Part shown: in pieces, positions 56,638 to 59,600 of the stretch
Position numbering within the stretch: position 1 is the first letter of the stretch
Layout of the letters: every line of letters starts with the position of its first letter
From: Malacoraja senta
Lineage: Eukaryota
Assembly: GCA_038087875.1 (NCBI GenBank)
Contig: CM075979.1
Span: 61,070,001-61,134,000 of the forward strand
Length of the DNA: 64,000 bases
Direction: 5' to 3'
Made by a program: the position numbers

Positions 56638-59600
56638 TTACATGCAGAATTTATGGTGGTGTTGCTGTGGGTCGAGGGTTTTAATTACGTATCAGTCATG
56701 ATAGAGCAAGTAAACAGATGAAGTAACGGCTGCCTCTTCAGAAGTACTTAGTTCAGTTTTGTTTAGATTAGAGATGCAATGCAGACACAGGCCCTTCGGC
56801 CCACCAGTTCCGCACCAGCCACCGATCTCCGCCACAAATACTATCCTACTTGGGCCAACTTACAATTTTACCAAGCCAATCAGCCTACAAACCTGTGTAG
56901 GATGGAACTGCAGATGCTGGTTTAAATCGAAGAATTAAATTGAAGAACTGATTCTGAAGAAGGGTCTCGACCCGAAACATTACCCTTTCCTTCAGAGATG
57001 CGGCCTGTCCCGCTGAGTTACTCCAGCATTTTGTGTCTAGCCTACAAACCTGTACGTCTTTGGAGTGTGGGAGGAAACCGGAGCACCGGGCAAACCCACA
57101 CAGGTCACGGTACAAACTCCATACAGACAGCACCCATAGTCAGGATCGAACCCATGTCTCTGGCGTTGTAAGGCAGCAACTCAACCACTGCGCCACTGTG
57201 TCACCCTCATTCTCTCCCATCTGAGGAACAGAGCCTCATTACAGAGACCACACCAATCACAAGCAACATAACCATGAATTACCAGCACTGAATCTACTCA
57301 TCAACAACTGTGATCATTACCAAGTTTTTTAACAATCACTCACATTCACAAATGCAGAGCAATCAGAACTAAAAAGACCAAGGTAATTTGTTCACAGACG
57401 TGATTAATCAAGAGTAGTATTACATTACTGTTATAAGGAAGCTGTCAGATGTGACAAATTAATTGAGAGTTCTGATTATACATGTAACAATCACATAAGG
57501 ACCCAGCAAAGATGTAACAAAATGGATCATTTCAAGAGTAAAACATCACTAATTGATTTTATTTAGCATCATAACACATCCATTTGTTTCAGCTTGATTA
57601 TTGGGATATTCGTTGACTGATTCACTGAAAGATACAGCAAGGAAACAGGCCCTTCAGCCCATCAGGTCCATGCCGACAATCGATCACCCACTCACAGTAC
57701 TTCTGTACATTTGCTCCCACTCCCTACACACTTTGGGCAATTTACAGGGGCCAATTAACCCATACACCTGAACATCCTTGTGAGGTGAGAGGAAACCGGG
57801 GCACACAGAGGAAACCCCAATGGTCACAGGGAGAATATGCAAACTCCAGACAGACAGCGCCCAAGGTCAGGTTGTGAGGCAGTAGCTCTACCAGCTGTGC
57901 CATTTTGCTGCCCCGTTAGCTTATGTAAAATAATTCAGAACAAATTGCTTCAGGTTTCCTATTAGCTGAGTGTCACAATTTGCTTCCCAAATTAGTAAGT
58001 GTTTTATATATGTATTCCACACAGCCAATGTTTGACATAACATTTGTAATAGCAACTTTTGCTATTCTAAAGGTCATTGGGAGAGCTCAGACTCAAGTAT
58101 AATGAATTCCTGTCTGAAAGTGTAGCTGCAGGCGAGAAATACACACAGTGGCAGAATATGCAATAGTGCATAAACTTCACATATGCTGAGGCAACCTTCC
58201 CAACTGAACATCAAGAAGGGGAAGTAAACGTTAGCCATGTCTGAAAATACTAGTCACGTTAAAGAATTTGATAGATATTGGGAAGATATTGTGGGCGGCA
58301 CAGTAGTGCAGCCGTAAGTTGCTGCCCTACAACGATAGAAACCCGGGTTCAATCCTGACCTCGGATGCTGTCTGTACGGAGTTTGTACATTCTTCCAGTG
58401 ATCATGTGGGTTGGTTTCCACACTGTGTCTCTAAAATAATCTTCACGGTAACTAATCGAGGAATATAGGGTCAGTGCAGCAAAGTGGTGCTGATGGAAAA
58501 GATTGGCTTGCGTCTATTGATTGGAAGAGCAGTCATGAGAAGCCAAGTGGTCTACTCCTATTTTCCATGACCTACAGTACCTTCTTATGTTTACTGCCCA
58601 GGCTTTGACCTCTGGAAGTCTCTAGAGCTCGCAGGGAAGAGATAATCAAAGGGATAGTGGTGAGGCACATGAGGAGAGGAAGCAGAGGGAATGATGGTGA
58701 CAAATGTCCAAAGTCTCTCACAGCTCCTTCTCTGTGATTCGTGCTGCTTGCTTTGTCCTGCATCTCCTGTCTCCCAGCTTTATCACCCTCCCCCCCCACC
58801 ATCAGTCTGAAGAAGCGTCCTGACCTTAAACATCGCCTATCCATGTTCTCCAGGGATGCTGCATGACCCACTGAGTTACTCCAGCACTTTATAATGAATT
58901 TATAAATTTATGAATTTATAATGAATAATGTCTTTATAATGAATTCCTGTCTGAAAGTGTAGCTGTAGACAGTGAGATGCACATAGTACCAGAATATGCA
59001 TAAACATCACACAAGCTCTGAAAGGTGAATATTTTGGCAGGTTTTAGTCAAACTAGATCCAAATCCAAAATGACCTTCAAGCTTGATGTAAAACAACTAG
59101 ATACAATGTGAAGGTTTATCATCTTATTCCAGGCTGCATCAACAACATCATGTCTTTCCTTGCTCCAGTATTGTTGGCACGTTCTCAAAGCCTCCTAACA
59201 CCAGAACCTGGACAAACTCAGGTTTCCTCCTCCTGAAATGTAGCAAAGCCAAGCCAATGCTCTTTTGGTCCCATCGGAACCCCCAAGCCAGCCCACTCAT
59301 GGATAAGCAAGTGTGTGATTGCTACAGTTAACCAGGGTCAAACTTTAAACTTCCACCAAATCACTCCTGACCCCAGCATCTTTTCTCTATTCTTTAACAA
59401 CGCAAAAAACTGCAAATAATGGAAATTGAGATAAGAAAAACAGCAATGTCTTGGAGTACTTGGAATGTCAGTCAGAATCTGCAGATGGTGAGCCCGAGTC
59501 ATTTCAGGTCAAAGACTACTTTGGAACTGGTAATTAATGGAGATAGATTAAAATGCAGAGAAAGGAAGGAGGAAAGGGGAGAATAAAAAAAAGTAAGATC

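What the first reader, a model, noticed from the sequence alone, without database searches (positions are those of the whole stretch)
56882..57053. Short hammerhead units carry 11-15 bp target-site duplications, so they inserted as discrete units
Seen: direct repeats flank at least five units: 13 bp (1756/1915), 14 bp (2487/2646), 15 bp with one mismatch (10936/11101), 11 bp (27536/27768) and 15 bp (56882/57039). The last duplicates a known SINE segment, which defines the pre-insertion site. Inference: variable-length TSDs point to target-primed retrotransposition in trans by a Penelope RT/GIY-YIG, not cut-and-paste MITE movement or decay of long copies.
Basis: partly seen in the sequence, partly recalled or inferred. 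Interest (0 to 1): 0.65.

Follow-up and report, generated by a model that had tools for sequence, protein, structure and literature searches.

The report
Short Penelope retroelement ends with duplications
The short "hammerhead units" are real, separately inserted pieces of a Penelope-like retrotransposon flanked by duplicated target DNA, and their two-armed shape matches what is already known about how these elements insert.

Summary
All five direct repeats sit at the stated coordinates (13, 14, 15 with one mismatch, 11 and 15 bp) and are far beyond chance. I found more, giving a range of 7-17 bp. Six paralogous SINE copies carry the 15-mer of 56882/57039 once and uninterrupted, so the pre-insertion site is defined.

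The units are not simple hammerhead monomers. They are the terminal ~100 bp (pseudo-LTR with a minimal hammerhead-like core) plus a ~35-nt "tail" of a Penelope-like element. RT/GIY-YIG-bearing long copies in the window end in the same sequence.

All seven well-flanked units are two-armed. A tail-less inverted arm starts at model position 93-101, and a sense arm ends in the tail. The finding's own unit is inverted arm, 19-nt filler, then tail only.

5' ends cluster at model positions 1-8. None lies at the predicted ribozyme cut at 33/34.

This matches published Penelope architecture (inverted pseudo-LTR, one-sided tail, short duplications) and the in vitro result of two reverse-transcription start sites with extension of both target strands. 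Direct insertion by Penelope machinery is supported. Mobilisation "in trans" of a dedicated family is not shown.

Verdict: new member of a known kind.

The parts
56882..56896 (.). Left copy of the 15-bp target-site duplication of the finding's unit
   Evidence: Exact 15-mer repeated at 57039-57053. It is present once in six uninterrupted paralogous SINE copies.
56897..56933 (-). Tail-only sense arm (model positions 97-133), ending next to the left duplication copy
   Evidence: nhmmer hit 56933-56897 on the minus strand, model 97-133. Pairwise check.
56934..56952 (.). 19-nt filler between the two arms
   Evidence: Not covered by either arm. By eye it partly repeats the start of the tail.
56953..57038 (+). 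Tail-less pseudo-LTR arm (model ~5-95/99), inverted relative to the tail arm. It carries the hammerhead-like core at 56954-56978.
   Evidence: nhmmer hit 56953-57042 on the plus strand, model 5-99. Core match with 0 mismatches. Core descriptor hit.
57039..57053 (.). Right copy of the 15-bp target-site duplication
56760..57200 (-). Host tRNA-derived SINE copy split by the insertion. This is the target, not part of the element.
   Evidence: Its left and right halves match many SINE copies. In six paralogues the halves are contiguous and overlap by the single 15-mer.
1756..1927 (+). Unit U1 (1769-1914) with a 13-bp duplication. Inverted arm of ~21 nt (model 99->78) plus sense arm 15->132 with tail. 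The CTGANGA box is absent.
2487..2659 (+). Unit U2 (2501-2645) with a 14-bp duplication. Inverted arm from model ~95-108 down to 7-17, plus sense arm 72->133 with tail.
10936..11115 (+). Unit U3 (10951-11100) with a 15-bp duplication (1 mismatch). ~20-nt inverted arm starting at model 100, plus sense arm 3/4->134.
   Evidence: The tail-less copy at 10815-10909 lies outside the duplication and is a separate insertion.
26599..26798 (+). Unit U4 (26616-26781) with a 17-bp duplication (1 mismatch). Inverted arm 101->8 plus sense arm 67->131.
27536..27778 (+). Unit U5 (27547-27767) with an 11-bp duplication. Inverted arm 99->1 and sense arm 1->134 overlap in a short palindrome around TCAGTCTGA.
63742..63965 (+). 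Unit U7 (63753-63954) with an 11-bp duplication (1 mismatch). Inverted arm 93/97->4/5 plus sense arm 31->128/131.
17109..17224 (+). Simple tail-less unit (17118-17215, model ~4-101) with a 9-bp duplication
30599..30727 (-). Simple 5'-truncated unit with tail (30609-30717) and a 10-bp duplication, inserted directly at the 3' end of an older two-armed unit (30728-30932)
35778..37543 (-). 5'-truncated autonomous-type Penelope-like copy. It holds the second half of RT, a CX5CX2C linker and GIY-YIG (one in-frame stop), then ~110 nt of CT-rich UTR, the same pseudo-LTR and the tail.
   Evidence: Translation. RVT_1 and GIY-YIG (23.6 bits, cut-off 22.6). 46-56% identity to the best six of 228 longer RT/GIY-YIG proteins with E<=1e-10. 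nhmmer 35907-35778, model 2-133.
61111..62024 (-). 5'-truncated Penelope-like copy: endonuclease-coding end, UTR, pseudo-LTR and tail
   Evidence: tblastn with P0001-P0006. nhmmer 61239-61111.
6581..7716 (-). Penelope-like copy with the N-terminal half of the ORF, an internal deletion, then UTR, pseudo-LTR and tail
   Evidence: tblastn. Translation. nhmmer 6688-6581.

Best explanation
The units are ORF-less insertions of the terminal module of a Penelope-like retroelement (PLE). That module is a ~100-bp pseudo-LTR carrying a minimal hammerhead-like core, with or without a ~35-nt tail. The element's RT/GIY-YIG protein put them in directly by target-primed reverse transcription at staggered nicks, which leaves duplications of about 7-17 bp.

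Reverse transcription starts at one of two fixed internal points of the RNA: model position ~100 (no tail) or ~135 (with tail, at ...CCTACAC). It runs to an RNA 5' end that lies at model positions ~1-8, at a conserved TCAGT just upstream of the CTGAAGA box.

In most duplication-flanked units both target strands were extended. One strand gave the sense arm with tail, and the other gave the tail-less arm in inverted orientation. The two cDNAs were then joined head to head at a variable junction.

What is shown:
- the anatomy of the units;
- the duplications and the paralogous empty site;
- identity with the 3' end of ORF-bearing copies;
- the two classes of 3' end;
- the clustering of 5' ends.

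What is inferred:
- that each arm was primed from a different target strand;
- that the 5' cluster is a transcript start;
- that ribozyme cleavage plays no part in making the template ends.
For: 1. Same sequence as the PLE end. A 135-position profile finds 54 hits in 39 clusters. Ten hits continue upstream into a CT-rich UTR, and three of those into RT/GIY-YIG coding sequence.

2. Duplications are far above chance, and a paralogous empty site exists.

3. Two classes of 3' end. Of 54 hits, 32 end at model >=127, 15 end at 96-108 and 7 end elsewhere.

4. All 7 duplication-flanked two-armed units have one tail-less and one tailed arm. P=0.003 if each end chose independently at the observed 32:15 ratio. 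In 9 of 10 two-armed units the tail-less arm starts at model 93-108; U10 starts at 88.

5. The two arms belong to the same subfamily wherever both could be typed, while the junctions differ in every unit. This points to independent single events.

6. In the finding's own unit the arms do not overlap (tail 97-133 against body 5-95). Self-copying of one cDNA cannot give this.

7. 5' ends. 9-10 of 20 arms end at model <=8 (P about 1e-5 to 1e-6 if uniform), none runs into the UTR, and 0 of 54 hits start at 32-36.

8. Eight of 12 upstream duplication copies begin with CA or ACA, like the tail terminus, where 9.7% is expected (P=3e-6).

9. Literature.
- Arkhipova 2013 (PMC3846280, passages): inverted pseudo-LTR next to a direct one, a 31-bp tail on one of them, 8-10-bp duplications, a palindrome at the junction.
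- Craig 2021 (PMC8557442, passages): an inverted 5'-truncated copy and a 30-40-bp tail often at one end only.
- Frangieh 2024 (PMC11167929, main text): the anole element cuts and extends both strands, starts reverse transcription at two adjacent internal sites with the tail between them, and ribozyme mutants still insert.
Against: - Everything rests on one 64-kb window and small numbers: 7 + 3 two-armed units and 5 simple units with duplications.
- Frangieh 2024 saw no difference in start site between top and bottom strands in vitro. The strict one-tail-per-unit pattern here is therefore not predicted by that work.
- Three two-armed structures have tails on both arms (90-226, 16793-17022, 42834-43112), and none of them has a duplication.
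- Five of six simple tail-less units have no detectable duplication.
- Identity between the arms of one unit (74-90%) is only slightly above the family background (72-79%) and is never the best match. Common origin of the arms therefore rests on subfamily matching.
- No full-length element with a 5' pseudo-LTR is in the window. It is thus not shown that model position 1-8 is the element's transcript start.
- No conserved RNA structure was found around the start sites.
- Duplication lengths are uncertain by 2-4 nt because of the CA/ACA overlap with the tail terminus.
Confidence: 0.7

Rival explanations
1. The short units are a dedicated non-autonomous family, like a retrozyme or a SINE, with its own master copies, copied in trans by Penelope proteins.
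For: - Short units outnumber long ones. About 10 two-armed and about 13 simple short units stand against 10 long copies.
- Arkhipova 2013 (PMC3846280, passages) concludes that pseudo-LTRs are sufficient in cis for mobilisation in trans.
- Li et al. 2026 (bioRxiv 10.64898/2026.07.22.740005; abstract, Results part 1, passages) argue that non-LTR retrozymes derive from PLE pseudo-LTRs.
- Tail-less ends occur only in short units: 6 of 13 simple short units against 0 of 8 long copies (one-sided P=0.03).
Against: - Short units have no sequence of their own.
- They occur in each of at least three subfamilies alongside long copies of the same subfamily. That fits recurrent by-products better than one lineage.
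- There are no tandem arrays of the unit, and arrays are what defines non-LTR retrozymes. The single head-to-tail pair has its own 10-bp duplication.
- Cis and trans cannot be told apart from DNA alone.
Confidence: 0.25
2. Solo pseudo-LTRs made after insertion. Full-length elements (inverted pseudo-LTR, pseudo-LTR, ORF, pseudo-LTR, tail) lost the ORF by recombination between the two direct pseudo-LTRs, which keeps the original duplications.
For: - The product would look like U3, U5 and U9, where the sense arm starts at model 1-5.
- Arkhipova 2013 (passages) reports solo pseudo-LTRs in a rotifer and invokes recombination or deletion.
Against: - In 7 of 10 two-armed units the sense arm starts inside the pseudo-LTR, at 15, 16, 22, 31, 67, 72 or 97. 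U2, U4 and U6 would leave only 5-35 nt of homology.
- The repeats are only ~100 bp long.
- No long copy in the window keeps a 5' pseudo-LTR, and the three ORF-bearing copies have no inverted arm.
- Tail frequency differs between long and short copies.
Confidence: 0.1
3. Plain random 5' truncation of cDNAs made on full-length Penelope RNA, with the inverted arm made by snap-back self-priming of that one cDNA rather than by extension of the second target strand.
For: - PLE insertions are known for heavy 5' truncation (Craig 2021, passages).
- Arkhipova 2013 (passages) favours self-priming because of palindromes at inverted junctions.
- U5 has such a palindromic overlap.
Against: - 5' ends are not random, and no arm enters the UTR.
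- The outer end of the inverted arm is fixed at model ~93-108 in 9 of 10 units. Snap-back does not explain this.
- The finding's unit has non-overlapping arms, so the inverted arm cannot be a copy of the sense arm.
Confidence: 0.15
4. A cut-and-paste MITE with terminal inverted repeats.
For: The two arms are inverted repeats of each other and the units are 140-220 bp long.
Against: - Duplication length varies from 7 to 17 bp.
- One end carries an extra 35-nt tail.
- Arm lengths and junctions differ in every copy.
- Simple one-armed units also have duplications.
- The sequence is the end of an RT-encoding element.
Confidence: 0.01

Closest known systems
Genomic architecture of endonuclease-containing Penelope-like elements (Arkhipova et al. 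2013, PMC3846280; Craig et al. 2021, PMC8557442)
   Same: - Pseudo-LTR carrying a hammerhead-type motif.
- An inverted 5'-truncated copy placed head to head with the direct one.
- A 30-40-bp tail on one end only.
- Short duplications (8-10 bp in the rotifer), a variable or overlapping junction, and heavy 5' truncation.
   Different: - Here there is no ORF between the repeats. The whole insertion is 98-221 bp.
- Duplications reach 17 bp.
- The pseudo-LTR is only ~100 bp, against 181-218 bp in the rotifer examples read.
- The host is a cartilaginous fish by the look of its repeats.
In vitro insertion by the anole Poseidon element PAc (Frangieh et al. 2024, PMC11167929)
   Same: - Two adjacent internal start sites for reverse transcription with the tail between them.
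- Both target strands cut and extended.
- An AC-rich start region; here the tail ends in ACAC.
- Ribozyme cleavage is not needed and no ends lie at the cut site.
   Different: - In vitro the two strands used the start sites alike. Here every duplication-flanked two-armed unit has exactly one tail (7 of 7).
- PAc preferred ATT in AT-rich DNA and showed no homology between primer and start site. Here 8 of 12 targets begin with CA or ACA like the tail terminus, and the sites are only mildly AT-rich (64% against 56%).
- Nothing was tested biochemically here.
Non-LTR retrozymes and dispersed minimal hammerheads of metazoa (Cervera and de la Pena 2014, PMC4209133; Li et al. 2026 preprint)
   Same: - Derived from PLE pseudo-LTRs.
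- A minimal core with an unpaired base before helix II and no helix III.
- Found mostly as single dispersed motifs 'probably related to truncated PLEs', sometimes as two motifs on opposite strands 100-700 bp apart.
   Different: - Retrozymes are defined as tandem arrays with a ribozyme in each unit. No array is present here.
- Circular RNA was not testable.
Twin-priming inversions of LINE-1 (recalled from memory, Ostertag and Kazazian 2001; not read here)
   Same: A second cDNA primed from the other target strand gives an inverted 5' segment joined to a direct 3' segment, within one pair of duplications. The finding's own unit, with non-overlapping arms, looks just like this.
   Different: - In most units here the two arms cover the same stretch of RNA, so two template molecules or two passes are needed.
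- The second start point is fixed rather than variable.
Solo LTRs of LTR retrotransposons
   Same: A terminal repeat alone, flanked by the original duplications.
   Different: Most units here have truncated arms that recombination between repeats would not give. The duplication length is not fixed.

Membership tests
Penelope-like elements (endonuclease-containing) | A single ORF with a reverse transcriptase followed by a C-terminal GIY-YIG endonuclease | tested here: met
   In long copies that end in the same unit. For 35778-37543 (-), RVT_1 matches, the YIDD motif was read in the translation, and GIY-YIG scores 23.6 bits against a cut-off of 22.6. It is 46-56% identical to the best six of 228 longer proteins (E<=1e-10), most of which carry PF00078 and, in 29 of the 120 listed, PF01541. 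The copy is broken by an in-frame stop and is 5'-truncated. The short units themselves encode nothing.
Penelope-like elements (endonuclease-containing) | Pseudo-LTR with an adjacent inverted 5'-truncated copy | tested here: met
   There are ten two-armed head-to-head units, seven of them within duplications. A direct pseudo-LTR pair around an ORF is not present in this window.
Penelope-like elements (endonuclease-containing) | [quoted passage not shown] | tested here: met
   The two classes of 3' end lie about 35 nt apart: 32 tailed, 15 tail-less and 7 others among 54 hits. There is one tail per unit in 7 of 7 flanked two-armed units.
Penelope-like elements (endonuclease-containing) | Short target-site duplications of variable length | tested here: met
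   7-17 bp in 12 units, above chance.
Neptune-type clade of PLEs | [quoted passage not shown] | tested here: inconclusive
   A CX5CX2C motif was read in the translation of 35778-37543 and in homologues P0001-P0006. No phylogeny was made, so clade assignment stays open.
Hammerhead ribozyme (Rfam families) | A match to a curated covariance model: three helices around the conserved core | tested here: not met
   No hammerhead family at gathering score, at E<=10 over the window, or at E<=10 over 27600-27780 with lax filters.
Minimal PLE-type hammerhead (Cervera and de la Pena 2014; core descriptor of Craig 2021) | A CUGANGA box, helix II, and a GAAA box 7-17 nt downstream. No helix III is required, and there is an unpaired base before helix II. 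| tested here: met
   The pattern gives 14 hits against 2.4 expected, 12 of them in this family. The extra A before a 4-bp helix II was read in the alignment. Helix I is at most 2 bp by eye. Self-cleavage is not testable here.
Non-LTR retrozymes | Tandem repeats in which every unit carries a type I hammerhead | tested here: not met
   Tandem Repeats Finder lists no array of the unit. The one head-to-tail pair is two separate insertions.
Non-LTR retrozymes | Circular RNA made by self-cleavage and ligation | not testable with these tools
   No RNA data were available.
MITE / DNA transposon | Terminal inverted repeats at both ends and a duplication of fixed length | tested here: not met
   Lengths were 7, 7, 9, 10, 10, 11, 11, 13, 14, 15, 15 and 17 bp. 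The termini are asymmetric because of the tail.
SINE | An internal pol III promoter (tRNA, 5S or 7SL head) and a LINE-type tail | not tested
   No tRNA scan was run on the unit. By eye it has no tRNA-like head, unlike the SINE it inserted into.

The most novel reading that the evidence does not exclude
Insertion is an ordered two-strand reaction on a very short promoter-proximal RNA. The template would be a ~100-135-nt transcript that begins at the initiator-like TCAGT just before the hammerhead core. The first target strand would always prime at the distal site (giving the tail) and the second strand always at the proximal site (no tail). In this genome most Penelope-derived insertions would then be such 'pseudo-LTR retrocopies', made without ribozyme cleavage. 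This would add a strand rule that the in vitro work did not see, and a template class that the passages I read do not describe for PLEs.
Probability: 0.3. Interest if true: 0.5.

Novelty: new member of a known kind. Interest (0 to 1): 0.33.

Why it matters
The way Penelope-like elements integrate is still poorly understood, and the first biochemical reconstitution dates from 2024. These short units are the simplest possible genomic footprints of that reaction: both ends, both arms and the duplicated target fit in 140-220 bp. A survey of them across a large cartilaginous-fish genome could test three things at scale. It could check the two-start-site model, show whether the two target strands use the sites differently, and show where the template RNA begins. 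For annotation the lesson is practical. Such units should be called truncated Penelope ends rather than hammerhead genes, retrozymes or MITEs, and their inverted arms are a product of insertion, not assembly errors.

Tried and rejected
- Rfam at three settings gave no hammerhead. The motif fits only the relaxed core descriptor.
- RNAalifold on the 3' ~90 nt of 14 tailed copies predicted no pairs at all, so there is no support for a conserved stem-loop at the start sites.
- Arm-to-arm identity within units was only slightly above background and never the top match. It was not used as proof of common origin.
- I looked for the element's N-terminus in the pseudo-LTR. The N-termini of the six best longer homologues show no likeness by eye to the short frame opened by the ATG in the pseudo-LTR. 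They share at most 56% identity with the ORF piece used as query, so this says nothing either way.
- I searched for a 5' pseudo-LTR or inverted arm at the three ORF-bearing long copies and found none.
- I searched for tandem arrays and found none.
- Paralogous empty sites for four other simple units (and for the unit at 39580-39704, see the noticed items): the flanks of 13045, 16340 and 48094 are unique in the window, so there was no test. 15844 lies in a SINE tail.
- I looked for a nick-site motif beyond the CA/ACA start. With 12 sites nothing further was clear.
- MITE and SINE readings were rejected on anatomy.
Paper supplements were also closed. Figs S1 and S2 of Frangieh 2024 and the supplementary files of Craig 2021 and Cervera 2014 may hold start-site, duplication-length or fish hammerhead data bearing on these claims.
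- No complex, structure or atlas job was run, because none bears on the question.
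Full report
**Scope.** The window is 64 kb, 43.5% G+C, with one N run at 54312-54460 that I left alone. Its repeats (tRNA-derived SINEs, LINEs, Penelope-like elements) look like those of a cartilaginous fish. Nothing suggests a human contig. Exon-like ORFs were only scanned one by one against Pfam, and no joined step was done.

**1. The observation.**

The 15-mer at 56882-56896 recurs exactly at 57039-57053.

I ran two controls.
- I paired left and right flanks from different elements, giving 1482 pairs. No exact repeat of 11 bp or more appeared, against 3 of 39 true clusters. 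A one-mismatch repeat of 13 bp or more appeared once, against 5 of 39.
- I searched up to 450 nt upstream of each 3' end. Repeats of 13 bp or more turned up at 9 of 47 ends (six loci), against 6 of 180 control flanks shifted downstream. The high control values (14, 15 and 18) came from the ends at 16902-17022 and 25903-25992, the first next to microsatellites listed.

Further flanked units exist:
- 26599/26782 (17 bp, one mismatch);
- 63742/63955 (11 bp, one mismatch);
- 17109/17216 (9 bp);
- 30599/30718 (10 bp);
- 15838/15972 (10 bp, low complexity);
- two of 7-10 bp.

The SINE argument holds. The two flanks of the unit match many SINE copies. In six of them the flanks are contiguous and share a single copy of the 15-mer, and a seventh, more diverged copy is also uninterrupted.

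**2. What the units are.**

The core CTGAAGA...GAAAC occurs 18 times at three mismatches or fewer, where none is expected. A 135-position profile built from window copies finds 54 hits in 39 clusters.

The module has two parts. One is a body of about 100 nt that starts at a conserved TCAGT just before the core. The other is a tail of about 35 nt ending in ...CCTACAC.

Ten hits continue upstream into a CT-rich stretch. Three of these continue into coding sequence.
- 35778-37543 (-) holds the second half of a reverse transcriptase, a CX5CX2C motif and a GIY-YIG domain. It has one in-frame stop, and the ORF ends about 110 nt before the module.
- 61111-62024 (-) holds the endonuclease end.
- 6581-7716 (-) holds an N-terminal half, then an internal deletion, and then the module.

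The database search returned 228 longer proteins at E<=1e-10. The best is 56% identical, and most of those listed carry RVT_1, with GIY-YIG annotated in 29 of the 120. The module is therefore the 3' end of a Penelope-like element (PLE): its pseudo-LTR plus tail.

**3. The units are two-armed.**

Next to the left duplication sits an inverted arm whose outer end is at model 93-101 (up to 108 by the profile hits), so it has no tail. It is joined to a sense arm that ends in the tail next to the right duplication.

Arm lengths and junctions differ in every unit. Inverted arms run inward to model 78, 7/17, ~83, 8, 1, 5 and 4/5. Sense arms start at 15, 72, 3/4, 67, 1, 97 and 31.

The finding's own unit, read on the minus strand, is an inverted body (model 95/99 to 5), a 19-nt filler, and then the tail alone (97-133). 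Three more two-armed units lack a convincing duplication: 18977-19189, 25779-25992 and 30728-30932. In the last of these the inverted arm starts at model 88.

The arms of one unit belong to the same subfamily wherever both can be typed. Their identity (74-90%) is only slightly above background.

**4. Ends.**

*3' ends.* Of 54 hits, 32 end at model 127 or later, 15 end at 96-108, and 7 end elsewhere.
- All eight long copies with an intact 3' end have the tail.
- The 15 tail-less ends break down as follows: seven are inverted arms; one is a possible arm 260 nt from its partner (20931-20986); one is a separate copy beside U3 (10815-10909); six are simple units of about 100 bp.
- Only one of those six simple units (17118-17215) has a duplication.
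- Tail-less ends are commoner among simple short units (6 of 13) than among long copies (0 of 8). One-sided P=0.03. Copy 49913 was left out as ambiguous.
- One tail per unit in 7 of 7 flanked two-armed units has P=0.003 under independent choice.
- Three structures with tails on both arms (90-226, 16793-17022, 42834-43112) have no duplication.

*5' ends.* 35 of 54 hits start at model 8 or earlier, and ten of those continue into the UTR. Nine or ten of the 20 arms of the ten two-armed units end at model 8 or earlier, and none enters the UTR. The four simple units with duplications that reach the 5' end start at about -2 to +4. No hit starts at 32-36, around the cut expected after GAAACGTC.

The ends are neither at the cleavage site nor random.

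**5. Targets.**

Eight of 12 upstream duplication copies begin with CA or ACA, where 9.7% is expected (P=3e-6). This matches the tail terminus. It suggests a nick-site preference or a few base pairs between primer and start site. It also makes duplication lengths uncertain by 2-4 nt. Target sites are 64% A+T against 56% for the window.

**6. The hammerhead label.**

No Rfam hammerhead model matches. The relaxed core descriptor used for PLEs does match: 14 hits against 2.4 expected, with 12 in the family. The extra unpaired A before a 4-bp helix II and the lack of helix III fit the 'minimal' PLE hammerheads described by Cervera and de la Pena 2014 (passages).

**7. Comparison with what is known.**

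- Arkhipova et al. 2013 (passages) describe a rotifer Penelope with two direct pseudo-LTRs, an adjacent inverted one that overlaps the direct one and is 37 bp shorter, a 31-bp tail on one of the inverted pair, and duplications of 8-10 bp. They also report trans-mobilisation of foreign genes between pseudo-LTRs.
- Craig et al. [quoted passage not shown]
- Frangieh et al. 2024 (main text read) show that the anole element cuts and extends both target strands. It starts reverse transcription at two adjacent internal RNA sites with the tail between them. It does not need ribozyme cleavage.
- Cervera and de la Pena 2014 note that most minimal hammerheads are single dispersed motifs 'probably related to truncated PLEs', some paired on opposite strands.
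- Li et al. 2026 (preprint; abstract, Results part 1, passages) link tandem retrozymes to PLE pseudo-LTRs.

The units here are thus the known Penelope insertion signature reduced to its minimum, with no ORF. My three literature searches listed no paper describing this in skates, rays or sharks. I did not open any of the cartilaginous-fish papers they listed.

**8. Mechanism.**

My best reading is direct insertion by target-primed reverse transcription.
- One cDNA is primed at the distal start site and another, from the other target strand, at the proximal site.
- Both run to an RNA 5' end near the TCAGT.
- They are then joined head to head.

The finding's unit, with non-overlapping arms, cannot be a snap-back copy of one cDNA. 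It resembles LINE-1 twin priming (recalled, not read). That the 5' cluster is a transcript start is an inference. TCAGT resembles an initiator motif (recalled), and Arkhipova 2013 mention an initiator-like motif in a rotifer pseudo-LTR.

Pseudo-LTR recombination is unlikely for the seven units whose sense arm is truncated within the pseudo-LTR. It stays possible for three. Whether the template was the element's own RNA or short transcripts copied in trans cannot be told from this window.

**9. Verdict.**

It is a new member of a known kind.

Two modest open points are worth a genome-wide look: the one-tail-per-unit rule and the sharp 5' boundary.

Left unchecked: orthologous sites, genome-wide distributions, RNA evidence and paper supplements.

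Noticed in passing
window 39580-39770 (-): A tailed unit whose 5' end (model position 6) is fused, in the same orientation, to about 65 nt of a SINE head, with CTG shared at the junction. The SINE does not continue on the other side. This may be a template-switch chimera made during reverse transcription. No clear duplication was found.
   Followed up: partly
window 42834-43112: A head-to-head pair with tails on both arms. The 10-12 nt beyond each tail are also inverted repeats of each other. Either the start site lay further downstream in this subfamily, or a DNA-level palindrome formed. No direct duplication was found.
   Followed up: partly
window 30599-30932 (-): A younger 5'-truncated unit with its own 10-bp duplication sits exactly at the 3' end of an older, more diverged two-armed unit. 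This looks like insertion next to an existing tail, which is one way partial tandems could arise.
   Followed up: partly
window 13045-13143, 16340-16441, 39100-39197, 48094-48192, 48413-48508: Five simple tail-less units of ~100 bp (model ~3-105) show no detectable duplication. One of them interrupts a LINE reverse-transcriptase frame. How they integrated is unexplained.
   Followed up: partly
window 35778-35860 (-): In the subfamily of the ORF-bearing copy, an ATG inside the pseudo-LTR opens a frame that stays open through the tail (26 codons) and on into the flank (10 more). In the commonest subfamily the same frame stops inside the tail. In other PLEs the ORF starts in the pseudo-LTR, so this may be the real start codon.
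   Followed up: no
window 21459-25104 (-): A LINE with GDSL-esterase-like, AP-endonuclease and reverse-transcriptase ORF pieces (Pfam). Another LINE RT end lies at 7862-8734 (+).
   Followed up: no
window 17715-18524 (-), 56058-56459 (-), 50821-51759 (-): Exon-like or domesticated-looking ORFs: Peptidase_M1 N-terminal domain (E=7e-22), a biopterin-dependent aromatic amino-acid hydroxylase segment (E=1e-13) about 500 bp from the finding's unit, and DUF659 (E=2e-14).
   Followed up: no
window 53737-54012 and 54461-54571: A G+C-rich minisatellite (periods 41-84) and a GGA/GAGGGGGGAG repeat lie on either side of the N run.
   Followed up: no
window-wide, e.g. 40308-40576, 42405-42693, 45934-46115, 49337-49503, 55740-56029: Many copies of one tRNA-derived SINE with a (CTAAA)n-like tail. 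At least two Penelope units sit in or at the end of such SINEs (15844-15969 and 56897-57038).
   Followed up: partly
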